Below are positions 1,365 to 13,597 of a DNA stretch of 17,212 bases, piece by piece. Made by a program: the position numbers and the translations under genes. The DNA is from a virus: UHGV virus genome UHGV-0185805, one strand, 5' to 3'. Under the pieces are notes generated by a model, which was given only the letters and a program-made list of their open reading frames with translations, searched no databases and was not told the DNA's origin. How positions within the stretch are numbered: the first letter of the stretch is position 1; the number at the start of each line of letters is the position of its first letter.

Positions 1365-1973
1365 TTATTTGATTTCAATTTTGTCCCACTCCCTGCCTCT
1401 GTCATCACGATACTGTGATGCCATGGTGTCCGACTTATGCCCGAGAAGATGTTGAGCAAACTTATCGCTTATCTGCTTCTCATAGAGTCTTGCAGACAAA
1501 CTGCGCAACTCGTGAAAGGTAGGCGGATCCCCTTCGAAGGAAAGACCTGATGCTTTTCGTGCGCGCATAAAATACCTTGATACTGTGCCGGATGAAAGCG
1601 GTTCACGACGAGTAGATGCAATTATGGTTTCTCCGCCAAGAATCTCTTTGCATTTATCAAGTGTTTCCTTCATTGATATCCCGAGAGCATCAACATGCAA
1701 TGTTGTTGGGATGGCAATTTTTACGCCTGTTTTGCTTTGCTCGACATAAAGATATCCATCTACGATATCAGACCACTTCATTTCGCATAAATCACCAACT
1801 CGCTGCCCGGTAACAACAGCCAGTTCCATTGCAAGTCTGAGCCAACATGGTGATGATTCTGCTGCTTGATAAATTTTCAGGTATTCGTCAGCCGTAAGTC
1901 TTGATCTCCTTACCTCTGATTTTGCTGCGCGAGTGGCAGCGACAGGGTTTGTTGTTATATGGCCTTGTCGCCG
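1365..1973 (-). pseudogene. int: Lambda-type integrase fragment: C-terminal ~202 codons (catalytic domain) only; N-terminal arm-binding and most of core-binding domain absent; in-frame TAG at 1974-1976
   Basis: ORF 1365-1829 (MELAVVTGQRVGDLCEMKWSDIVDGYLYVEQSKTG...DDRGREWDKIEIK) matches the lambda Int C-terminus as remembered. In-frame homology (..GHITTNPVAATRAAKSEVRRSRLTADEYLKIYQAAESSPCWLRLA) extends 48 codons upstream to a TAG stop with no start codon. Catalytic residues (R in TGQR, HELR, GH, SQY) are retained. Confidence 0.85.
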
Positions 1974-2036
1974 CTACTTCGCGCAAGAAATCGACTTCCC
2001 ATTTCTCCCATGGAGTCTTTTTCATAGGCGATACCG

Positions 2037-2525
2037 TTATTTGATAAGAAGTGAAGGTTTCCCAACTTTGAGTTGAGCGCCGGGGATATTTATTCCTGCT
2101 TTTAGTTGGTGTTTGATTGCCAGTTTGTCGGCTTTAATTGTTGTTTCAAACTCAACGTATTCAGGAGGAAGGGCGCTTGAGTCGATTATTTCTACAATTT
2201 CTGACGGTTTGCGGATTGTTACCTGGTGAATACCTGCTCTAATCTTTTTCTTGCCTACCATTTCAAGCGATGACGCTATATATGATATGATGCTGTCAAT
2301 CTTATTTTGAATTACTGCGGCTCGCTCATTCAGTGACTTTGCCTCTTCCTTGAGGCGTTCAGCATAACCAGATTCATTTTTAATGACGGAAAGAAGTTGC
2401 TCTATTTTATCGGTAAATTCTCCTTCCATGCCTTCTATTGTGTCAGCAATCATCTCTGGCTCTAAATCTGAATCCATCAATTTTGCGTATTCATTGGCTA
2501 TTTCATATAGTTTACTCACTGGCAA
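2037..2525 (-). CDS. Phage Gp157-like protein (family commonly found beside RecT/ERF recombinases)
   Basis: 162-aa acidic helical ORF (MPVSKLYEIANEYAKLMDSDLEPEM...) immediately downstream of the RecT-like gene on the same strand. Family assignment is from memory of the Sipho_Gp157 pattern and synteny, not from a search. Confidence 0.5.
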   Translation of the reverse strand: MPVSKLYEIANEYAKLMDSDLEPEMIADTIEGMEGEFTDKIEQLLSVIKNESGYAERLKEEAKSLNERAAVIQNKIDSIISYIASSLEMVGKKKIRAGIHQVTIRKPSEIVEIIDSSALPPEYVEFETTIKADKLAIKHQLKAGINIPGAQLKVGKPSLLIK

Positions 2526-3168
2526 CCTCCAGTTTCGCTTTGCATTCTATGTAAATGGCTTGTACGTTATGCTGCAATTTCATTCCAGATGTCAGGCGAT
2601 ATGCTTCTGCAAAATATCGCTTCAAATCATCCATGTTTTCTGCCTGAGCCATTTCATCACAAAGAAGTTGTGCTTTATCCGTTATTTCCTGCTGGCGTTT
2701 CCGTTCATCTTCGCGGATATCTTCCTCTGATTTGTACGGCATAACTGGTTCAGTCCATACACCTTCTTCTTCGTTTAGTACGTGAATAGCACTATCAAGA
2801 CGTGATGCCTTAGGCCAATACTTGCTTGCACGCTTTACGACCGTCTTTCGCGCCATCTCATTCCAGTGATTTACCCATGGTCCTTTATCGCTGAATGCCG
2901 CCTTGCTTGTTTTCCTTACAGCCTCAATTTCAGCCAGACTCATCTCTTCCGTTAGATAATCACCTGCTGGCGTCTTAACTGTGCAGTAAACGCCAACGAT
3001 ATCACCACGATCACCGAAGGCGTTGTATTTATGGGTTGGTGCTTTATCAAGCCCGTTTGACTCATAGGTATCGTTAGCATGAACAAGTTTTGCCTGACCC
3101 CATGAGATAACACCAGACTCCATTGCAATATGGAGCAATCCCATATAACTGATATCAAGGCAAACCAT
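2512..3168 (-). CDS. recT: RecT-family single-strand annealing recombinase, N-terminally truncated; homology continues upstream to ~3255-3300 with no start codon
   Basis: ORF contains ...GPWVNHWNEMARKTVVKRASKYWP..., comparable to Rac RecT ...GPWVTHWEEMAKKTAIRRLFKYLP... as remembered. Reading upstream in frame gives ...AIINVAAIGITLNPASKLAYLVPRDG (RecT-like) back to a stop at 3301-3303 with no ATG/GTG/TTG, so roughly the first 70 residues of a normal RecT are missing. Confidence 0.7.
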   Translation of the reverse strand: MVCLDISYMGLLHIAMESGVISWGQAKLVHANDTYESNGLDKAPTHKYNAFGDRGDIVGVYCTVKTPAGDYLTEEMSLAEIEAVRKTSKAAFSDKGPWVNHWNEMARKTVVKRASKYWPKASRLDSAIHVLNEEEGVWTEPVMPYKSEEDIREDERKRQQEITDKAQLLCDEMAQAENMDDLKRYFAEAYRLTSGMKLQHNVQAIYIECKAKLEVASE

Positions 3169-3209
3169 GCCGTCGCGCGGAACTAGATAAGCAAGTTTGC
3201 TGGCCGGGT

Positions 3210-3377
3210 TTAAGGTGATGCCGATCGCCGCAACATTGATGATGGCGTAGGGCGGTGTAATACTTCTGAACTTATTGCTTCTTCGCGGGCCAGTACGCCG
3301 TTAGCTAATGCCTTTGCCTTTAAACGCTCACGACGACGAGAACGTGAATTGCCTTTGAACTGAGTTCTGCGTGTCAT
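3210..3377 (-). CDS. N: N-like transcription antiterminator, P22-type arginine-rich motif, truncated (55 codons, 3' part reads out of frame through RecT-derived DNA)
   Basis: First gene downstream of PL on the minus strand, RBS AGGAGG then ATG at 3375-3377: MTRRTQFKGNSRSRRRERLKAKALANGV... resembles the P22 N arginine-rich boxB-binding peptide (GNAKTRRHERRRKLAIER, from memory). A P22-type boxB hairpin lies in its leader. Normal N proteins are about 100 aa. Confidence 0.55.
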   Translation of the reverse strand: MTRRTQFKGNSRSRRRERLKAKALANGVLAREEAISSEVLHRPTPSSMLRRSASP

Positions 3378-3505
3378 ATAGACCTCCTGGTGAACTTTGG
3401 CGGTGAATACAGCCGGGCGACTAACTCCGGTAGCGTAATCATTGCAAAGCGCCTCCGCCGAGAAGGTTAGCTTCTGCATTCACCCCAAAGTTCACTTTGG
3501 TTATT

Positions 3506-3520
3506 GCGCTTTGTCAGCGC
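3506..3520 (-). promoter_or_regulatory. nutL boxB hairpin, P22 type (GCGCUGACAAAGCGC on the leftward transcript)
   Basis: Reverse complement of 3506-3520 is GCGCTGACAAAGCGC: 5-bp stem with GACAA pentaloop, between PL and the N-like start. Matches P22 boxB as remembered. Confidence 0.6.
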
Positions 3521-3578
3521 CGTAGATTCATATTTGAATCGTTGTATATTCACCGCCCTGGTGAGTAGTGCGTCCTGC

Positions 3579-3641
3579 TGATGTGTTTAGTATCACCGCC
3601 AGTGGTATTTATGTCAACACCGCTAGAGATAATTCATCACC
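3579..3641 (-). promoter_or_regulatory. Lambda-type OL1/OL2/OL3 operators with PL promoter (-10 GATACT at 3579-3584, -35 TTGACA at 3602-3607 on minus strand)
   Basis: OL1 TATCACCGCCAGTGGTA 3581-3597; OL2 CAACACCGCTAGAGATA 3605-3621; OL3 CATCACCGCAGATGGTT 3625-3641. 17-nt spacer between -35 and -10. Confidence 0.85.
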
Positions 3642-3802
3642 GCAGATGGTTATCTGTATGTTTTTTATATGAATTTATTTTTTGCAGGGGTGCATTGTTT
3701 GGTAGGTGAGAGATCTGAACTGCTATGTTTAGTGAGTTGTATCTATTTATTTTCAAATAGATACAATTGGTTATGTGTTCTTGGGTGAGGGGGATCGTGA
3801 GG

Positions 3803-3829
3803 CAAAGAAAACCCGGCTCTGTGGCCGGG
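3803..3829 (-). terminator. Rho-independent terminator at the end of the cI (PRM) operon, lambda t_imm-like
   Basis: Stem CCCGGC (3812-3817) / GCCGGG (3824-3829), 6-nt loop, followed on the minus strand by TTTTCTTTG; lies just after the stop of the ORF ending at 3838. Confidence 0.7.
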
Positions 3830-3837
3830 AATAACAT

Positions 3838-4216
3838 TTAGGAATCAAGGTCAGGTAGCATGATTTTCTCAATCAACGTCAATGCCCTTTGGTCTCGTTC
3901 AGCAAAATATTTAGGAGCGTACTGAGGCAGCCACACTTCGTTGAAGTATTGTTTGAAATCTGCAATATTCGTTTGGGTATAGACGTACCGGGAATGTCCG
4001 GCCATCTGGGTACTCATGGTTATATGTTGGGAATGTCTTCGGCTCAACCCCCCGGTTGTCACGGAGCCATTGCGAGAAAACCCTACCCTCTGAAATATCA
4101 GGGACCATTTTTTCTGGCAGCGTATATCCGGCCTGTTCAAGTGGCGCAACCAAGTTAAACGTCAGTTCATTAAGCATAGAAAAGTGCGTATGAGGAACTC
4201 TGCCTCGGTTTGTCAT
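3838..4216 (-). pseudogene. Hypothetical protein in the rexAB position, apparently disrupted by a -1 frameshift near 3985-4000 (ORF 3911-4216 carries the N-terminal part, ORF 3838-4149 the C-terminal part)
   Basis: Two overlapping minus-strand ORFs in different frames. 3911-4216 starts protein-like (MTNRGRVPHTHFSMLNELTFNLVAPLEQAGYTLPEKMVPDISEGRVFSQWLRDNRGVEPKTFPTYNHEYPDGR...) but ends Arg/Ser-rich. 3838-4149 starts junk-like but ends protein-like (...YVYTQTNIADFKQYFNEVWLPQYAPKYFAERDQRALTLIEKIMLPDLDS) right before the terminator. No family recognised. Confidence 0.45.
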
Positions 4217-4255
4217 ATACCGCTTAAGGTGGATAGGGAGTTCGGCAGGCGCTCT

Positions 4256-4597
4256 TTAACCTGACATCCACTCACGCACCCATCTCGATACTTGCACTGC
4301 AAATTTTGGAGATAGCCACTGAGCTAAATTAATTGCGATGTCTGGATGAACCCAAGTCCCTTGATTCTCTGCTCTTCCGCCTTTAAATGATTGAATTAAC
4401 TCCGATATGGGAATCCCCATATCGCGTGATAATTCATCAAAAAAATCTTGTGTTGTTTTTAGTCGTGTATAGTCAGCAAGTAGCTTCCCCGCAGACTTGC
4501 ACATCGCGGTGGCATTGATGTATCCGTCTTTGGTGCGAAGATGGATGACTTCTCCATCAACTTCTCTAGCGATTAATGCAAGTTGAAATTGTGTCAT
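4256..4597 (-). CDS. KilA-N domain protein (stand-alone, 113 aa) immediately downstream of cI
   Basis: ...DGYINATAMCKSAGKLLADYTRLKTTQDFFDEL...WVHPDIAINLAQWLSPKFAVQVSRWVREW fits the KilA-N/Bro-N signature as remembered. AGGA RBS 6 nt upstream of ATG; 31-nt gap after the cI stop. Confidence 0.75.
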   Translation of the reverse strand: MTQFQLALIAREVDGEVIHLRTKDGYINATAMCKSAGKLLADYTRLKTTQDFFDELSRDMGIPISELIQSFKGGRAENQGTWVHPDIAINLAQWLSPKFAVQVSRWVREWMSG

Positions 4598-4628
4598 AAA
4601 TCATCCTATTACGTGAAAAATAAAACAA

Positions 4629-5345
<717 letters not shown>

Positions 5346-5352
5346 TTAAATC

Positions 5353-5418
5353 TATCACCGCAAGGGATAAACTTCTAACACCGTGCGTGTTGACTATTTT
5401 ACCTCTAGCGGTGATAAT
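5353..5418. promoter_or_regulatory. Lambda-type OR3/OR2/OR1 operators with divergent PRM and PR promoters
   Basis: OR3 TATCACCGCAAGGGATA 5353-5369; OR2 TAACACCGTGCGTGTTG 5376-5392; OR1 TACCTCTAGCGGTGATA 5400-5416; PR -35 TTGACT 5390-5395 and -10 GATAAT 5413-5418; RBS TAAGGAGG before cro ATG at 5443. Confidence 0.9.
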
Positions 5419-5442
5419 GGTTGCCTGTACTAAGGAGGTTGT

Positions 5443-5643
5443 ATGGAACAACGCATAACCCTGAAAGATTATGCAATACGCTTTGGGCAAACCAAGACGG
5501 CTAAAGATCTCGGCGTATATCAAAGCGCGATTAACAAGGCCATTCATGCAGGCCGAAAGATTTTTTTAACTATAAACGCTGATGGAAGCGTTTATGCGGA
5601 AGAAATAAAGCCCTTCCCAAGTAACAAAAAAACAACTGCATAA
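5443..5643 (+). CDS. cro: Cro repressor (lambda type, 66 aa)
   Basis: [66 protein letters not shown], two substitutions relative to lambda Cro as remembered. Confidence 0.95.
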
Positions 5644-5650
5644 GTAACAC

Positions 5651-5696
5651 CGCTCTTTTCACAATGGACATTCGTCCTACGTCGCTGACAAAGCGA
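5651..5696 (+). promoter_or_regulatory. nutR: boxA-like CGCTCTTTT (5651-5659) and P22-type boxB hairpin TCGCTGACAAAGCGA (5682-5696)
   Basis: Located between cro and the cII-like gene, where nutR sits in lambdoid phages. The boxB loop (GACAA) is the same type as nutL. A hairpin ATGCGT-TTCC-ACGCAT at 5727-5742 may be a tR1-like structure. Confidence 0.55.
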
Positions 5697-5780
5697 GCCC
5701 CAAGATATCTGACCAACTAAGGCCATATGCGTTTCCACGCATACCTTTCAACTAACTATTCACTATTGGAAAATTAACAA

Positions 5781-6109: not shown

Positions 6110-6271
6110 ATGACAAAACGTCGTAAGAAATACCAGGAAAAAGAAGAGATTCGACACCCTGATTCACCTGAGGGATTAGTGGTAGCCGCAGCAAATAACA
6201 GGGCGTTCGCAGAGCGCCTTGTTGGTGTTTACAGACTAGCCAAAGTAGGAGTGAAACATGGGCGTCGTTAA
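6110..6271 (+). CDS. Small hypothetical basic protein (53 aa) with strong RBS, unknown function
   Basis: AGGAG 7 nt upstream of ATG at 6110; MTKRRKKYQEKEEIRHPDSPEGLVVAAANNRAFAERLVGVYRLAKVGVKHGRR; stop at 6269-6271, 1 nt from the converging Q fragment stop. Below the ORF-track length cutoff. Confidence 0.3.
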   Translation: MTKRRKKYQEKEEIRHPDSPEGLVVAAANNRAFAERLVGVYRLAKVGVKHGRR

Positions 6272-6272
6272 G

Positions 6273-6752
6273 TTAGCTGATTGCTGGCATTCTTGAATAG
6301 CCGACACCTTTGCATCTTCCGCACTCTTTCTCAACAACTCTCCCCCACTGCTCCGTTTTGGCTATATCAACCGCACGGCCTGTACCGTGGCAATCTCTGC
6401 ATCTTGCACCCGGCGTCGCGGCACTACGGCAATAATCCGCATAAGCGAATATTGCGAGCACTTGCAGTACCTTTGCCTTAGTATTTCCTTCGAGCTTTGC
6501 CACACCACGGTATTTCCCCGATACCTTGTGTGCAAATTGCATCAGATAGTTGATAGCCTTTTGTTTGTCGTTCTGGCTGAGTTCGTGCTTACCGCAAAAT
6601 GCAGCCATCCCGAATCCGGCCTGTGATTGTGCCATCCCCATAGCAGCCATCACATCAGTACCGGAAAGAGAGTCAGAAGCTGTAGCCCGTGGTGAGTCGC
6701 TAATCATCGGGCTTTTTGGCGAATGAAATTTAGCTACGCTTTCGAGTCTCAT
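6273..6752 (-). CDS. Q: Antitermination protein Q, lambda type, C-terminally truncated (159 of ~207 aa), inverted relative to PR
   Basis: MRLESVAKFHSPKSPMISDSPRATASDSLSGTDVMAAMGMAQSQAGFGMAAFCGKHELSQNDKQKAINYLMQFAHKVSGKYRG...CRDCHGTGRAV...CGRCKGVGYSRMP matches the lambda Q N-terminal region including the zinc-binding cysteines as remembered; the ORF then hits a stop where lambda Q continues. Confidence 0.8.
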   Translation of the reverse strand: MRLESVAKFHSPKSPMISDSPRATASDSLSGTDVMAAMGMAQSQAGFGMAAFCGKHELSQNDKQKAINYLMQFAHKVSGKYRGVAKLEGNTKAKVLQVLAIFAYADYCRSAATPGARCRDCHGTGRAVDIAKTEQWGRVVEKECGRCKGVGYSRMPAIS

Positions 6753-7800
6753 GCGCCTTCTCCCTGTAATCGACCAGAATCATGCCAACACATCCTTTTT
6801 CTCGCTTGATTCGACGACTTTCGCTGACGATTTGAGCCAGAGATAATCCCGGCGTGTCGTCGATGTAAAGCAGGTCGATTTCACTCAAGCGATTGGCTGT
6901 TTCGATCGCCCTGTTGAAGTCACCATCGTAATCACCCTGATAGCCGTCATCAGCGTCATTTGTCGCCGGAAGGTAAAAAATATTCGGGTTAACACCAGAC
7001 TTCTGCCCTACCAGTTTTTCCAGTATCTGGTCACCTGGCATTTCAAGGCTGAACATCAGAGCGGGCTTTTTCTCATGCACTGCGCAGTTGATTGCCATCT
7101 GGCTGTATAGCGTCGTTTTCCCCATCTTAGGGCGAGCGCCAATGACAAACAGAGAGCCTTTCACCAGACCTTTCGGTGACAGCATCCTGTCCAGCGATGG
7201 GATCCCTGTGCTCATTCCTCGTTGTTCGCCTGACGGGTCAAATCGCTTCTCAAGGTCGCTAACCCAGTCTTCCATGACCTCACCAAATGAACGAAGGCCG
7301 CGACGCGATCCGGTTTTTGCATGGTCTGTCAGTTGCGTGAAAATCGACTGAATAGCTTCGTACTTCTGCGTTGCAGTCATTCCGTTGCGGGAATAGAGCA
7401 ATTCCGTCGCTTCAGTCATACGGTTGATGGCGTAGCGTTCCATTGCGGTTTCACGAACCTGCATTGCATAGGCAACGATGTTTGCTGCGCTTGGCGTGTT
7501 CTTTGCGATCTCAGCGATATAAGCAAAACCGCCAACAGACACAGTTAACGATTTACGCTCCAGTTCATCGAAAAGCGTCAGGCCATCTACTGGCTTTTGC
7601 TCCCGGTGCATTCTGGTTATTTCTTCGAAAAGGATTTTGTGTGGCCGGCTGTAAAATGAATCAGGCTTCAGCATCGCCAGAACCTTCTGGACGCGCTCAC
7701 TGCTGTCATCATCCAGAAGCAATCCACCAATCACCGCCTGCTCTGCCTCGATGCTATGGGGCGGCGCATAAAAATTATCGGTCATCGTGTTCACCCTCAC
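6730..7800 (-). CDS. DnaB-family replicative helicase (P22 gp12-like), C-terminally truncated at ~356 aa and abutting the Q start
   Basis: N-terminal DnaB signature SIEAEQAVIGGLLLD and Walker A GARPKMGKTT present; ORF ends ...GMILVDYREKAHETRKRS* just after the helicase motif where DnaB proteins normally continue ~100 aa; its stop overlaps the Q ATG. Confidence 0.75.
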   Translation of the reverse strand: MRVNTMTDNFYAPPHSIEAEQAVIGGLLLDDDSSERVQKVLAMLKPDSFYSRPHKILFEEITRMHREQKPVDGLTLFDELERKSLTVSVGGFAYIAEIAKNTPSAANIVAYAMQVRETAMERYAINRMTEATELLYSRNGMTATQKYEAIQSIFTQLTDHAKTGSRRGLRSFGEVMEDWVSDLEKRFDPSGEQRGMSTGIPSLDRMLSPKGLVKGSLFVIGARPKMGKTTLYSQMAINCAVHEKKPALMFSLEMPGDQILEKLVGQKSGVNPNIFYLPATNDADDGYQGDYDGDFNRAIETANRLSEIDLLYIDDTPGLSLAQIVSESRRIKREKGCVGMILVDYREKAHETRKRS

Positions 7801-8293
7801 GAACTTTCAGGTAGGTATTATCGTTAAGCAGGAAATCAAATCCCTTTTTGTGCCAGACAGTTCCGCGTTGATGGTTTGGACGCTCTTCGAACATCCATCG
7901 GCAATTTTCGCCTACGTAGCTCAAATAATTTCTCCAGTCCTGCATCGTGAACCCATGCCCGTCAAGCTGGCGGGTTATCACTCCGGCTTTGCGCCAGAAC
8001 GTTCGGATCTGGTTTTTACGCTTGTCATTCAGTGCGCGGATTCTTGGCGCTTCAGGAAGGATTTCGTGGTAAGCATCGACAACATCCTGACAGCTGACGG
8101 AAGGTTTTTTCTTGTCAGACTTTTTGTCTGCTGTAGCACTCTCTAATACGTCAGTATTAGAGATATTATTTATATTATTGTTTATGGACAACCGTTGGAC
8201 AATTTTTTGCCTGAAAATCGTCATATTTAACGATTGTAAACAGGCTAAATTTCTTCCCCATCGAGCAAATATTAAGCATACCTTTCGACTCAA
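7775..8293 (-). CDS. Replication initiator (O-like) linker and C-terminal part, in a different frame from the upstream N-terminal ORF (frameshifted single gene or two genes)
   Basis: ORF spans the AT-rich palindromic ori-like DNA (translated as ...SINNNINNISNTDVLES...) and ends overlapping the helicase start, as O-type genes do. Confidence 0.45.
   Translation of the reverse strand: MSRKVCLIFARWGRNLACLQSLNMTIFRQKIVQRLSINNNINNISNTDVLESATADKKSDKKKPSVSCQDVVDAYHEILPEAPRIRALNDKRKNQIRTFWRKAGVITRQLDGHGFTMQDWRNYLSYVGENCRWMFEERPNHQRGTVWHKKGFDFLLNDNTYLKVREGEHDDR
8140..8163. repeat. Perfect 10-bp inverted repeat TCTCTAATAC-gtca-GTATTAGAGA flanked by AT-rich DNA; candidate origin element inside the O-like gene
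   Basis: Read directly from the sequence; followed by tattatttatattattgtttat (8164-8186) and a second palindrome AATCGT-n8-ACGATT near 8214-8233. Confidence 0.4.
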
Positions 8294-8525
8294 AAGTCCG
8301 TAATAAGCTCCGAACTTTGTTGTCGGGGATGAATGTTTCTCTGACCAGCGACGGGCGTCCAGTTATCATCTGACCGCGATCAACAGTTATCGGACCGATA
8401 TCCGTATTGACGACAGTAGATTCGTGATTAGCCTTGAGGATTAAGTGAAGCCAAAGATGTACTGCCTGAGAGTCCTTATAGAGCCTGCTGTCCATAAACT
8501 GGCGGTGTATAGAGACATACCCCAT
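8175..8525 (-). CDS. Replication initiator (O-like / P22 gp18-like) N-terminal DNA-binding part
   Basis: MGYVSIHRQFMDSRLYKDSQAVHLWLHLILKANHES... resembles phage replisome-organiser N-terminal domains; directly upstream (same strand) of the helicase. Overlaps the next ORF 8175-8293 in another frame. Confidence 0.55.
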   Translation of the reverse strand: MGYVSIHRQFMDSRLYKDSQAVHLWLHLILKANHESTVVNTDIGPITVDRGQMITGRPSLVRETFIPDNKVRSLLRTFESKGMLNICSMGKKFSLFTIVKYDDFQAKNCPTVVHKQ

Positions 8526-8560
8526 ACTGGATGCCTCCTGATGTTGTACAGGGTTATGCC

Positions 8561-8869
8561 TGTAAACTCAAATCAACAGCCGCCGGACGTTACCAGCTTC
8601 TTTCCCGTTGGTGGGATGCCTACCGTAAGCAGCTTGGACTGAAAGACTTCTCTCCGAAAAGCCAGGACGCTGTGGCACTGCAGCAGATTAAAGAGCGTGG
8701 CGCTTTACCGATGATTGATCGCGGTGATATCCGTCAGGCTATCGACCGTTGCAGTAATATCTGGGCTTCACTGCCGGGCGCTGGTTATGGTCAGTTCGAG
8801 CATAAGGCTGACAGCCTGATTGCAAAATTCAAAGAAGCAGGCGGAACGGTCAGAGAGGTTGAGGTATGA
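8561..8869 (+). pseudogene. R: Endolysin R fragment (lambda-type transglycosylase, C-terminal ~100 codons only)
   Basis: ...[100 protein letters not shown] matches the lambda R C-terminal half as remembered. The N-terminal catalytic part and the holin gene are absent; the ATG at 8531 lies in junction DNA. Confidence 0.85.
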
Positions 8870-10443
8870 GCAAAGTCACCGCGATTATCTCCGCTCTGGT
8901 TATCTGCATCATCGTCTGCCTGTCATGGGCGGTCAATCATTACCGTGATAATGCCATCGCCTACAAAGAGCAGCGTGATAAAAAAGTCAGTGAGCTGAAG
9001 CAGGCGACTGCCACCATTACTGACATGCAGCAGCGCCAGCGTGATGCTGATGCACTCGATGCTAAATACACGAAGGAGTTAGCTGATGCGAAAGCTGAAA
9101 ATGATGCTCTTCGGCGCAAGCTTGATAATGGTGGCAGGGTGCTCGTCAAAGGAAAATGCCCTGTGCCATCCTCAGCCGAAACCTCCAGCGCCTCCGGCAT
9201 GGGCAATGATGCCACCGTCGAACTCTCTCCAGTTGCTGGACGAAACGTTCTCAGTATCAGATCTGGAAATCCAGCGTTTGTTGCACAGGCACAACAGGCG
9301 TTTTCCGGTCTTAATGAGCAGCAACGCAACGATATGGGCGATTTAGCCATGAGGGCTAACGTCGCTCTTTCTCAGGGACCGGAAGCCTACAGTAAATTCA
9401 TTACTGACAACAAGGACAGGTTAAATCGTGTGGGGGCTAATGCTGACTGGATGATTCAGACAGGTATCCAGAATCCAGAGCAGCTATCACACATGCTGAC
9501 TACTATGTCTCTCGGTGCACTTGGGCCAGAAAAGGCGTTTGCTGTTCAGGACAAGATAGCTGGTCGTGAGATTGACCGAGGCAGACTGGCAGAGACAATC
9601 CGCAGCAATCAGGCCAGCGAAGCACTTCAGGCGAGAGGGCAGGATATTAGCCGAGCAAATGCGTTAACGTCAGCATATGCACCAACAGCCGCAATGCAGA
9701 ATTACAATCAGTACGCGCAAATGTTAAAGGCGGATCCAGATGGTGCAGCGGCATTTGCGGCAGCGGCGGGAATTAATCCCAATGCTAAGAAATTACTTAA
9801 GGTTGAAACCAATCCTGATGGCTCGGTAACTAAGTATTACACCGATGGCAGCGAGGAAGCCGGAAAACTAAACCAACCTATATCTGGTGATGGCATTAAA
9901 CCAATTAGTTTGCCACAAGCGCAAAGCATCATAGATAAGGCTAATGAGGGTTCCAAGAAGGCGGCAGGATTTGCTTTGCGATTAAAAGATTCAATGGACT
10001 CAATGAATCAGCTTAGTAAAAGCATTGACCCTAAGCGAGTTGCATTAATAAATCGCTCTCTTGGTGATGGGACTATTGCAAATTTAAGCCTATCACCAGC
10101 GGAGCAGCAATATATGGTAAATGCGAGAGACGCCTTGTATGCAATTTTGCGCCCAGAAACAGGTGCAGCAATTACTCTGCCAGAGATGCAGGAGTATTCC
10201 AAAATGTACCTGCCTCAGCCTGGTGATTCCAAGGCTGCTACTGAAACAAAAATGCGAAAAATGCAGGGCCAATATAACTCATTACGTGGTCAGTCTGGTC
10301 GCGTTTATGATGCTTTGGTGGTTTCAAGTGTTGCAAATAGTCAACAACAGAGCAATAGCCAACAACCGACAAATACCCAACAGCAGCAGAGTCAATCCGG
10401 ATCATATACCTCAAAATCAGGCATTCAATTTACGGTGGAATGA
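8866..10443 (+). CDS. Chimeric ORF: Rz-like spanin 5' part (about first 125-135 codons) fused in frame to the C-terminal ~390 codons of a probable P22 gp20-type ejection protein
   Basis: N-terminus [31 protein letters not shown]...[16 protein letters not shown] matches lambda Rz and overlaps the R stop as in lambda; an Rz1-like lipoprotein ORF is embedded in the +1 frame. The remainder is Ala/Gln-rich and overlaps (ATGATGA) the start of the gp16-like gene. The gp20 assignment is by position, not by remembered sequence. Confidence 0.6.
9086..9346 (+). CDS. Rz1-like outer-membrane lipoprotein spanin embedded in Rz frame +1 (native end probably near 9275; 3' part may be junction-derived)
   Basis: [19 protein letters not shown] (signal peptide plus lipobox) followed by proline-rich [11 protein letters not shown], as in lambda Rz1. 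Confidence 0.5.
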
Positions 10444-12303: not shown

Positions 12304-12798
12304 TTATTTTATAGTTTTTATGAATTCTTTATTAAATCCCTTAGCTTCTCCGGGGTATCTTCCAAAGACAATTTTTATAAAAACAGAAAAAATAAAGATA
12401 GCAACGCTTAACAACAGTTGCAGTATCATTGGAACCCAAAGAACTACAGGCTCTATATTCATGAAACCAAATATTCTTCCGGCGATCATGGCGAAGTACC
12501 ACACTGTTATCAGCAAACTTAGTGGCATATGAATTACTGATATTACCAATCCAAGAGCATCAGTAATTCTATTTTCAAATTTTTCAGGGGAAAACTTTTC
12601 TTTAAGGTAATTCAGTGCGCAGGCCTCATTCTCTGGATTTTCAGCATTTTTCCCTATAGCAATAGAAATCTCAGATATCCTTGATTCAATTCTTTTGCGT
12701 TTAATAAAACTAGAAAAAAAGAACCACGCAATCTGCAACCCTATCCCCATAAATAGAGTTGCGGCAACTAGCACAGCGTAACTCATAGAATCAGACAC
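12304..12798 (-). CDS. Small inner-membrane protein (about 4 TM helices) in the position of P22 sieA; candidate superinfection-exclusion protein
   Basis: Hydrophobic segments ([25 protein letters not shown]; [31 protein letters not shown]; [30 protein letters not shown]); AT-rich. Start uncertain: GTG at 12796-12798 with GAGG 5 nt upstream, ATG at 12784-12786, or the track start at 12870. Confidence 0.45.
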
Positions 12799-13015
12799 AC
12801 CAACCTCTTTAGTTTTTCTAGTTACTTTGTCACGATAGGATATGCGAATTGATAAAACTAAATTGCGCACATGATAACTCAGTAATAATTGTTAATGAAA
12901 ACATGATCACCTATATTGCACAAGGCGAAACAGGAAGCATAATCTGGTTTCATGAGTGTGATCACGTTTGGGTAAATCAAAGTCAAGAGGAAATACTTGA
13001 AATTATCAAAAATAA

Positions 13016-13597
13016 CTATCTAAACGTTGCACACGACTCATCTATCCATTTTTCATAAAATTGTATACCGAGATAGGCAAGAACAGATGGATGTATATCA
13101 ACAAGCTTTTCGCCAAGATGTTCTGTTGGAGGTGGATAATCTTTTCCTTGGTTTCTTACGGTTATAGGCATAGTTGTTGCTGGATGAAACTCAACTATCA
13201 TAGGGTCGCCTTCGTATTTTGCTATTTTCCCTGTTGAATCAATGATTAACTCTTTAATATAATGGCTTCTTGCTCCCGGAAATGCCCCAAGAGTAGTATA
13301 AGGAGGTTCAAGTTTTGAGATTTCCATAGTGGAATGATGATCAGCATTTCTTGCTTGGTGAAGGTAAGCAAGTGTTTTGTCTGTTTTTCTAAGCATGAAC
13401 TTTTGGTTGAAGTGGCTGCTAAATTTTCCACTAACCGGCTTTGTTGCACAGAGCAACTTACTGAAAGACTTTTCTATATGCCCAAGACATTCTCGCCAGT
13501 GCATTTCAAAATCATCATGGTTTGTAGATGATTTCATCTGCTCTAGGCACTTTTTAGCTGCGATGATTTCTTTTTTTGCTGGGTTGTAATCGATCAT
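13016..13597 (-). CDS. Hypothetical 193-aa protein translationally coupled to mnt (ATGA overlap); possible HEPN-like RNxxxH motif; function unknown
   Basis: ATG at 13595-13597 overlaps the mnt stop (13594-13596); AGGA RBS lies inside the last mnt codons. AT-rich, no family recognised. Contains ...LHQARNADHHS..., which fits the HEPN Rx4-6H pattern but is weak evidence on its own. Confidence 0.6.
   Translation of the reverse strand: MIDYNPAKKEIIAAKKCLEQMKSSTNHDDFEMHWRECLGHIEKSFSKLLCATKPVSGKFSSHFNQKFMLRKTDKTLAYLHQARNADHHSTMEISKLEPPYTTLGAFPGARSHYIKELIIDSTGKIAKYEGDPMIVEFHPATTMPITVRNQGKDYPPPTEHLGEKLVDIHPSVLAYLGIQFYEKWIDESCATFR

What the first reader, a model, noticed from the sequence alone, without database searches (positions are those of the whole stretch)
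3838..4597. rexAB replaced by a KilA-N gene plus a frameshifted unknown gene inside the cI operon
In lambda the DNA between cI and t_imm/OL carries rexA-rexB, an abortive-infection system made in lysogens from PRM. Here the flanks are lambda-like (cI ~98% identical, OL1-3, t_imm-like hairpin) but the cargo is a stand-alone 113-aa KilA-N domain protein followed by a ~125-codon unknown reading frame. This is a recognised hotspot for prophage-encoded exclusion or defence functions, and neither protein has an obvious known role.
Basis: partly seen in the sequence, partly recalled or inferred. Interest (0 to 1): 0.7.

Follow-up and report, generated by a model that had tools for sequence, protein, structure and literature searches.

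The report
Broken bstA phage-defence gene beside cI
The DNA that replaces rexAB next to the lambda-type repressor is one gene, not two: a member of the known BstA family of prophage abortive-infection genes, disabled here by a premature stop codon and a 2-bp deletion.

Summary
The flanks are lambda-like: cI is 233/237 aa identical to lambda cI, and OL, OR and the t_imm hairpin are present. Window 3830-4627 replaces lambda rexB-rexA exactly.

The cargo is a single reading frame, not a KilA-N gene plus a second unknown gene. The 113-aa KilA-N ORF and the next ORF are in the same frame, separated by one TAA. Related prophages (E. coli D5, phage PhiR5_2) carry an intact 253-aa gene that is 99% identical.

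The window copy differs from that gene by four changes:
- G>T at 4258 (E114*);
- a 2-bp deletion between 3965 and 3966;
- H218Y;
- one synonymous change.

The intact protein belongs to the BstA family. It matches PHROG 6287 over its full length (E 2e-82) and the PADLOC BstA model (E 3e-20). Homologues carry Pfam BstA_C plus KilA-N, and hhalign against BstA-BTP1-type proteins gives 97.8% probability. It also sits in the family's usual place, just downstream of the repressor.

BstA is a published abortive-infection defence (Owen et al. 2021). The copy here is a pseudogene in a decayed prophage.

Two observations remain unexplained. The dead haplotype is very widespread (at least 1000 contigs). 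The same E114* change also occurs on a second haplotype.

Interest is low.

The parts
3838..4597 (-). bstA-family gene (KilA-N + BstA_C, 253 codons when intact), here a pseudogene.
   Evidence: The window copy is 99% identical to the intact 762-nt genes of E. coli D5 and phage PhiR5_2 and differs by G9A, G340T, del633-634 and C652T. The three window fragments match consecutive parts of PHROG 6287 (BstA): profile positions 6-121, 164-253 and 245-301.
4259..4597 (-). The only ORF still linked to the native start codon and ribosome-binding site: a 113-aa KilA-N (APSES-like) DNA-binding domain.
4256..4258 (-). Premature stop codon: TAA replaces GAA (E114*; G>T at window 4258). It lies at the start of the interdomain linker.
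   Evidence: Alignment column 383; G340T; pLDDT dips over residues 111-120 of the model.
3965..3966 (-). Site of a 2-bp (TC) deletion between these two bases. It shifts the frame at codon 211/212 and removes the conserved C-terminal helix.
   Evidence: The residues lost include the invariant F215, F219, W223, Y231 and F232.
3948..3948 (-). C>T substitution, H218Y in the restored frame, at a residue conserved in at least 90% of family members.
4598..4628 (-). 31-nt leader between the cI stop codon and the bstA start codon. It contains an AGGA ribosome-binding site, and no terminator-like site was found in it. Together with the first ~34 nt of the coding sequence it occupies the position that the aba self-immunity element has in BTP1.
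   Evidence: Sequence; the terminator scan found no site in the leader. The leader travels with the gene behind different repressors. The position of aba is taken from PMC8585504. No BTP1-like aba motif was found.
3812..3829 (-). Intrinsic-terminator hairpin (CCCGGCCACAGAGCCGGG followed by TTTTCTTT) that ends the cI-bstA transcript. It is the counterpart of lambda t_imm.
   Evidence: it lies within the segment 92% identical to lambda 35550-35824.
4629..5342 (-). Lambda-type cI repressor, apparently intact. It is the upstream gene of the presumed operon.
   Evidence: 233/237 aa identical to lambda cI.
3589..3651 (-). PL and OL1-OL3.
   Evidence: Promoter match TTGACA-17-GATACT. OL1 is identical to lambda OL1 at 3591-3607; OL2 and OL3 have one mismatch each (lambda annotation; the lambda operator sequences are from my own knowledge).
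5353..5418 (+). OR3-OR2-OR1 with PR. PRM, the presumed lysogenic promoter for cI-bstA, diverges from this region.
   Evidence: Ungapped 96% alignment to lambda 37226-38255, lambda operator coordinates, PR match.

Best explanation
Window 3838-4597 (minus strand) is a single, inactivated gene of the BstA family of prophage abortive-infection proteins. It lies immediately downstream of a lambda-type cI, in the slot where lambda carries rexA-rexB.

The intact gene, seen in E. coli D5 and phage PhiR5_2, encodes 253 aa. It has an N-terminal KilA-N/APSES-like DNA-binding domain (residues ~1-113), a short linker, and the family-defining BstA_C domain. By inference it is read together with cI from PRM/PRE in lysogens and ends at the t_imm-like hairpin.

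By analogy with the tested BstA proteins of BTP1, E. coli NCTC10963 and Klebsiella Kp52.145, the protein would block DNA replication of a superinfecting phage, so that the infected cell dies without releasing progeny. A DNA element overlapping the 5' end of the gene (aba) would spare the prophage's own lytic growth.

In this window three lesions rule out the full-length protein:
- E114* stops translation after the KilA-N domain.
- A 2-bp deletion at codon 211/212 destroys the conserved C-terminal helix.
- H218Y hits a nearly invariant residue.

At most a 113-aa KilA-N fragment is made from the native start codon, so the defence function is very probably lost. The surrounding prophage is itself a decayed remnant.

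What is shown: gene identity, the lesions, family membership and synteny. What is inferred: co-transcription with cI, the abortive-infection mechanism of the intact form, and loss of function.
For: One frame, one stop:
- Translation of 3838-4597 in a single frame reads the KilA-N domain, one stop, then continues as orthologous sequence.

Intact orthologues:
- A 253-aa protein is annotated in E. coli D5 and PhiR5_2 directly after cI.
- The nucleotide alignment shows only G>T (E114*), a 2-bp deletion, C>T (H218Y) and one synonymous change.

Family assignment:
- PHROG 6287 'BstA abortive infection system', E 1.8e-82 over residues 1-252.
- PADLOC BstA, E 2.5e-20.
- BLASTP against BstA-BTP1: 29% identity over residues 133-251, E 5e-15.
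- Homologues carry precomputed PF26567 + PF04383, and BstA-BTP1's own cluster carries PF26567. PF26567 is named BstA_C, 'BstA-like C-terminal domain'.
- hhalign between the two subfamilies: probability 97.8%, E 1.2e-12 over 228 columns.

Synteny and operon signals:
- The gene lies downstream of the repressor, as reported for BstA (PMC8585504).
- Exact lambda breakpoints. Terminator, and no terminator-like site in the 31-nt leader.

Selection:
- Intact haplotypes show 15-29 nt differences but only 1-4 aa differences. The intact gene is therefore under purifying selection, and the window allele is the derived one.

Decayed prophage:
- Truncated int, RecT and N; an inverted block of Q, DnaB-like and O fragments; Rz fused to an ejection protein.
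Against: - This 253-aa subfamily has not itself been tested for defence. It shares only 29% identity with BstA-BTP1, and only in the C-terminal domain. Its N-terminal domain is a canonical Pfam KilA-N, which BstA-BTP1 does not match.
- The PADLOC BstA model covers only the C-terminal part (profile positions 149-271 of 292).
- No aba-like motif could be recognised.
- The dead haplotype is identical in many prophage backgrounds, and its 113-aa product occurs on at least 1000 contigs. E114* also recurs on a second haplotype. Both could mean that the truncated allele keeps some function.
- Neither expression nor loss of function was measured.
Confidence: 0.9

Rival explanations
1. The truncated allele is kept because it is still useful. 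Either the retained 5' DNA (leader plus first ~34 nt, the position of aba in BTP1) still neutralises the cognate intact BstA of resident prophages, or the stand-alone KilA-N domain acts as a decoy or dominant-negative. On this reading it would be an immunity-only or anti-defence allele that avoids the cost of abortive infection.
For: - Owen et al. showed that aba works as DNA and still works when bstA carries stop codons (PMC8585504).
- The exact 113-aa product is on at least 1000 contigs, against 924 for the commonest intact protein.
- The four-change haplotype is identical in all 10 places read in the exact-product look-up, in E. coli EC2641 (L002), and in 7 of the 10 stop-allele viral contigs. 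Two more of those viral contigs carry it with one or two extra changes. Several of these places have apparently complete replication modules.
- G340T also occurs on the H6/L022 haplotype, whose closest intact relatives keep G340. A 113-aa variant also exists in Klebsiella.
- Only 109 nonsense substitutions are possible in the gene.
- The stop lies exactly at the domain boundary.
Against: - The high counts may reflect clonal sampling of one successful lineage that carries this remnant. Only 3 of 5426 complete E. coli genomes have the allele, against about 15 with the intact lambda-linked allele.
- Other null alleles exist: W177*, and truncated products of 69-239 aa. This fits plain recurrent decay.
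- The haplotype also carries a second lesion and H218Y, as expected for a dead gene.
- No aba signature can be defined outside BTP1, and none was found.
- Two recurrences are too few for statistics.
Confidence: 0.12
2. One reading: two separate genes, a native stand-alone KilA-N protein and a second frameshifted gene of unknown family, forming a new defence cassette.
For: - The ORF list shows separate ORFs of 113, 101 and 103 aa.
- NCBI annotates only the 113-aa ORF in genomes with this allele.
- Owen et al. mention a few homologues that have only the KilA-N part or only the C-terminal part.
Against: - The 113-aa and 101-aa ORFs share one frame and are separated by one TAA that is GAA in orthologues.
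- 23 viral contigs and about 17 complete genomes carry the uninterrupted gene.
- The KilA-N + BstA_C architecture of ~250 aa is conserved across Proteobacteria at about 60% identity.
- Both halves match consecutive parts of a single BstA profile.
Confidence: 0.02
3. The stop codon and the 2-bp deletion are sequencing or assembly errors, and the gene is really intact.
For: None specific. The 2-bp deletion lies in a short TA/TC-rich context.
Against: The identical four-change haplotype is present in more than 20 independent assemblies from different sources, including isolate genomes, metagenomes and viral contigs.
Confidence: 0.01

Closest known systems
BstA of Salmonella prophage BTP1 (Owen et al. 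2021, PMC8585504; PHROG 6287; PADLOC PDLC02356; Pfam PF26567 BstA_C)
   Same: - Two-domain plan: an N-terminal KilA-N-type domain plus BstA_C.
- Position directly downstream of the prophage repressor, on the same strand, followed by its own terminator and then OL/N.
- C-terminal domains are homologous (29% identity, E 5e-15). The profiles align over 228 columns.
   Different: - 253 aa instead of 307 aa.
- The N-terminal domain is a canonical Pfam KilA-N (E 8e-27), whereas BstA-BTP1 gives no Pfam KilA-N hit.
- No CCCGCC-flanked aba sequence is present.
- This subfamily is untested, and the window copy is a pseudogene.
BstA-Ec (E. coli NCTC10963) and BstA-Kp (K. pneumoniae Kp52.145), the other tested homologues
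   Same: Prophage-borne and next to the repressor, with abortive-infection defence shown experimentally.
   Different: They are about 298 aa long and 42-48% identical to BstA-BTP1, so they belong to the long subfamily. The 253-aa type is not among the E. coli entries of the paper's Table S1.
Lambda RexA-RexB
   Same: Same genomic slot with the same boundaries, between the cI stop codon and t_imm. Same logic: an abortive-infection function expressed with the repressor in lysogens.
   Different: No sequence similarity. RexAB is a two-protein sensor plus membrane effector, whereas BstA is a single DNA-associated protein that blocks phage replication.
Stand-alone KilA-N / APSES DNA-binding domain proteins (Pfam PF04383; Mbp1, Bqt4)
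   Different: Here the stand-alone form is created by a nonsense mutation in a longer gene. It is not a native architecture.

Membership tests
BstA abortive-infection family | C-terminal BstA_C domain (PF26567). | tested here: met
   For the intact orthologue: PADLOC BstA E 2.5e-20 over residues 120-237; BLASTP to BstA-BTP1 E 5e-15; homologues carry PF26567, as does the BstA-BTP1 cluster; hhalign probability 97.8%. In the window the domain survives only as two out-of-frame fragments, which still match PHROG 6287 positions 164-253 and 245-301.
BstA abortive-infection family | N-terminal KilA-N(-like) DNA-binding domain. | tested here: met
BstA abortive-infection family | Located just downstream of the prophage repressor on the same strand (typical of the family, not obligatory). 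| tested here: met
   A 31-nt gap after the cI stop codon, with no terminator-like site found in it. The arrangement is the same in D5, PhiR5_2 and BTP1.
BstA abortive-infection family | Uninterrupted ORF encoding both domains in one polypeptide. | tested here: not met
   E114* (TAA at 4256-4258) and a 2-bp deletion between 3965 and 3966. The window copy is a pseudogene of the family, not a functional member.
BstA abortive-infection family | Cognate aba DNA element overlapping the 5' end of the gene that confers self-immunity. | tested here: inconclusive
   No match to the BTP1 aba and no CCCGCC terminal repeats. Only short chance-level repeats lie near the start codon. The aba elements of other homologues have not been mapped, so no general signature exists. 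The leader does co-travel with the gene.
BstA abortive-infection family | Abortive-infection phenotype: block of superinfecting phage DNA replication. | not testable with these tools
   This needs phage challenge of strains carrying the repaired and the native alleles.
Lambda RexAB exclusion system | RexA and RexB homologues between cI and t_imm. | tested here: not met
   blastn finds no similarity between window 3830-4627 and lambda 35825-37225. No Rex family appeared in the Pfam, PHROG or PADLOC hits.
Native stand-alone KilA-N proteins | Stop codon after the KilA-N domain conserved among orthologues. | tested here: not met
   The codon is GAA in D5, PhiR5_2, DY612 and 23 viral contigs.

The most novel reading that the evidence does not exclude
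The widespread E114* allele may not be mere debris. It could be a selected immunity-only form of a BstA locus. Such an allele gives up the costly abortive-infection effector domain. It keeps the 5' aba-like DNA, the free KilA-N domain, or both, and these would let the carrying phage escape the cognate intact BstA of related resident prophages.
Probability: 0.1. Interest if true: 0.55.

Novelty: new member of a known kind. Interest (0 to 1): 0.2.

Why it matters
The practical value is correct annotation. NCBI labels this locus 'KilA-N domain-containing protein'. It is in fact a BstA-family defence gene in the rexAB slot of lambda-immunity prophages, and in this genome it is dead.

This shows that the cI-to-t_imm slot exchanges complete defence cassettes (leader, gene and terminator) between different repressor types.

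It also shows that this short BstA subfamily is conserved under purifying selection in some prophages and repeatedly knocked out in others. That pattern is typical of costly abortive-infection genes.

If the truncated allele did retain aba-type immunity, it would be a natural example of a defence locus turned into an anti-defence locus. Nothing here demonstrates that.

Tried and rejected
- Search for the BTP1 aba sequence and for CCCGCC...CCCGCC repeats in the window: no matches. Repeat search around the start codon found only 6-7 nt chance-level repeats.
- Comparison of the 5' region with the 86%-identical protein variant of phage 613R10. Its upstream DNA is unrelated and the pattern was not informative.
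- NCBIfam: no hit. The local Pfam copy lacks PF26567, so that assignment rests on precomputed annotations.
- Literature: no paper found for phage PhiR5_2, and no later mechanistic study of BstA in the library. The 253-aa type is not among the E. coli entries of Table S1 of Owen et al..
A third independent origin of E114* could therefore not be checked.
- The whole window has no match covering at least 80% of its length in complete E. coli genomes.
- Sequencing error was rejected because the same haplotype occurs in many assemblies.

Full report
**Observation**

The minus strand of window 3200-5700 reads as a lambda-type immunity region. blastn against lambda gives two matching segments:
- window 4628-5657 = lambda 37226-38255 (96%, ungapped);
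- window 3550-3829 = lambda 35550-35824 (92%).

In lambda, cI ends at 37227 and rexB ends at 35825. Window 3830-4627 (798 bp) therefore replaces rexB-rexA and its spacers base for base.

cI (4629-5342) is 233/237 aa identical to lambda cI, and Cro is 64/66 identical. The PL and PR consensus promoters are found, and the operator sequences can be read directly. A GC-rich hairpin followed by TTTTCTTT at 3812-3829 (minus strand) lies 8 nt after the cargo's stop codon.

**The cargo is one gene**

The ORF list shows a 113-aa ORF (4256-4597), a 101-aa ORF (3911-4216) and a 103-aa ORF (3838-4149). Translating 3838-4597 in a single frame gives the KilA-N ORF, one stop, and then continuous sense sequence ('...WMSG*RAPAELPIHLKRYMTNRG...'). 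The first two ORFs therefore share a frame and are separated only by a TAA.

megablast against complete E. coli genomes finds 22 genomes that cover most of the region. In E. coli D5 and in phage PhiR5_2 the same position, directly after cI, holds one 762-nt gene for a 253-aa 'KilA-N domain-containing protein'.

Alignment shows that the window differs from this gene by four changes:
- G>A at coding position 9 (synonymous; window 4589);
- G>T at position 340 (GAA>TAA, E114*; window 4258);
- deletion of TC at positions 633-634 (between window 3965 and 3966);
- C>T at position 652 (H218Y; window 3948).

**What the gene is**

The intact protein matches known BstA models:
- PHROG 6287 'BstA abortive infection system, replication inhibitor' over its whole length (E 1.8e-82);
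- the PADLOC BstA model over residues 120-237 (E 2.5e-20);
- Pfam KilA-N over residues 13-112 (E 8e-27).

The three window fragments match consecutive parts of the same PHROG profile, positions 6-121, 164-253 and 245-301.

BLASTP against BstA of Salmonella phage BTP1, fetched from its genome record, gives 29% identity over residues 133-251 (E 5e-15).

A database search returns 2748 relatives. The best 120 listed are mostly ~250 aa long, come from many Proteobacteria, and share about 60% identity with the query. All listed relatives carry precomputed PF26567, and all but one partial sequence also carry PF04383.

The same search with BstA-BTP1 returns proteins carrying PF26567 alone. Sources name that domain 'BstA-like C-terminal domain' or BstA_C. 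A profile-profile comparison of the two subfamilies gives 97.8% probability and E 1.2e-12 over 228 columns.

**What is known about the family**

Owen et al. 2021 (PMC8585504) showed that BstA proteins of prophage BTP1, E. coli NCTC10963 and Klebsiella Kp52.145 give population-level defence by abortive infection and prevent replication of the incoming phage's DNA. The genes typically lie just downstream of the prophage repressor and presumably share its promoter. The authors themselves point out that lambda carries rexAB in the same slot.

Self-immunity is given by aba, a 63-bp DNA element made of 29 bp upstream plus the first 34 bp of bstA. It is flanked by CCCGCC repeats, acts as DNA, is specific to its cognate BstA, and still works when bstA carries stop codons.

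The 253-aa type found here is a shorter, divergent subfamily. It is not among the E. coli entries of their Table S1, and I found no experimental test of it.

**State of the window copy**

E114* sits at the start of the interdomain linker. The 2-bp deletion shifts the frame at codon 211/212. This removes residues that are invariant or nearly invariant in the family: D214, F215, H218, F219, W223, P225, A228, Y231, F232, R235 and D236. H218Y alters one of these.

Intact haplotypes differ from one another by 15-29 nucleotides but only 1-4 amino acids. The intact gene is therefore under purifying selection, and the window allele is the derived, degenerate one. Only the 113-aa KilA-N fragment can be made from the native start codon.

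The prophage around it is a remnant:
- truncated integrase, RecT and N;
- an inverted block holding fragments of Q, a DnaB-like helicase and O (6273-8525);
- an Rz open reading frame fused to an ejection protein (8866-10443), with all head and packaging genes missing.

**Mechanism proposed**

Shown: the identity, architecture, position and lesions of the gene.

Inferred from the family and from lambda biology: the intact gene is transcribed with cI from PRM in lysogens, helped by the 31-nt leader with its AGGA ribosome-binding site and no terminator-like site, and the transcript ends at the t_imm-like hairpin. The protein would associate with the DNA of a superinfecting phage through its KilA-N domain and block replication through the BstA_C domain. 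A 5' DNA element would protect the prophage's own induction.

In this window the effector domain cannot be made, so the defence is very probably lost.

**Unexplained observations**

The dead haplotype is not private to this remnant:
- The exact 113-aa product is recorded on at least 1000 contigs (1970 blocks), compared with 924 contigs for the commonest intact protein.
- All ten places read carry the identical four-change haplotype. Several lie in prophages with apparently complete replication modules.
- Among viral contigs, 10 carry the stop allele and 23 the intact codon.
- The same G340T is found on a different haplotype (E. coli H5/H6 and contig L022, 19 differences including the adjacent T339C). 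Its nearest intact relatives keep G340.
- A Klebsiella 113-aa variant also exists.

With 109 possible nonsense substitutions in the gene, recurrence at one site is somewhat unexpected.

Against reading much into this:
- Other null alleles occur, including W177* and truncated products of 69-239 aa.
- The counts are inflated by clonal sampling. Only 3 of 5426 complete genomes carry the window haplotype.
- The allele has accumulated further lesions.

The possibility that the truncated locus still provides aba-type immunity, or a KilA-N decoy, cannot be tested here. No aba signature was found.

**Verdict**

The flanks, the KilA-N ORF and the frameshift are real, but there is one gene rather than two. 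It is a pseudogenised member of the BstA family, from a short subfamily that has not been tested experimentally. Interest is low.

Noticed in passing
window 4256-4258; L008 (E. coli H6), L022: The same G>T nonsense change (E114*) occurs on two distinct bstA haplotypes. The window type has T339 next to it. The H6/L022 type has C339 and 18 other differences, and its closest intact relatives (L040, L050) keep G340. A 113-aa Klebsiella variant also exists. This looks like recurrence at the domain boundary.
   Followed up: partly
window 3838-4597; L010-L021, L023-L029: The four-change dead haplotype is identical across many different prophage backgrounds, with one or two extra changes in L023 and L029. 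Its 113-aa product is recorded on at least 1000 contigs, about as many as the commonest intact allele.
   Followed up: partly
L020-L052 (upstream and downstream 45 nt of bstA): The bstA cassette keeps the same boundaries behind different repressor genes. Upstream these are the last codons of the repressor (...TTTGGGTGA) plus a 31-32 nt leader. Downstream it is a CCCGGCC...GCCGGG hairpin terminator. This suggests that the whole leader-gene-terminator unit is exchanged as a module.
   Followed up: partly
L037 (IMG/VR contig 2857980404_000006): An independent null allele of the same gene, W177* (TGG>TGA). It matches the 176-aa truncated product seen in Raoultella (P0247).
   Followed up: no
window 6273-8525: A block with fragments of antiterminator Q (6273-6752), a truncated DnaB-like helicase (6730-7800) and two pieces of an O-like initiator (7775-8293, 8175-8525). 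It lies on the minus strand, inverted relative to cII. The nin region is missing, and the junction falls right after the 53-aa ORF at 6110-6271.
   Followed up: partly
window 8531-10443: An endolysin fragment (8531-8869) is followed by a 525-aa ORF whose first ~135 residues match an Rz-like spanin and whose remainder matches a P22-type ejection protein. A deletion has therefore removed all packaging and head genes.
   Followed up: no
window 12304-12870 (-): A SieA-like superinfection-exclusion gene that appears full length (PHROG 7745, E 1e-108). A second prophage exclusion function may therefore still be intact in this remnant.
   Followed up: no
window 13016-13597 (-): A 193-aa ORF lying between sieA and the Arc/Mnt-Ant region. 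It matches PHROG 23516 (unknown function) over its full length.
   Followed up: no
window 1365-3479: The left arm is degraded. It holds a 154-aa integrase fragment, a Mu-Gam-like gene, a RecT lacking its N-terminus, and an 89-aa ORF of which only residues 33-79 match antiterminator N. The same remnant architecture next to a pectinesterase-family host gene is seen in L010, L012, L015, L018 and L019.
   Followed up: partly
L005 (phage vB_EcoS-613R10): An 86%-identical intact bstA homologue whose upstream DNA is unrelated to the window's leader. No repressor gene is annotated upstream of it in this partial genome record.
   Followed up: no
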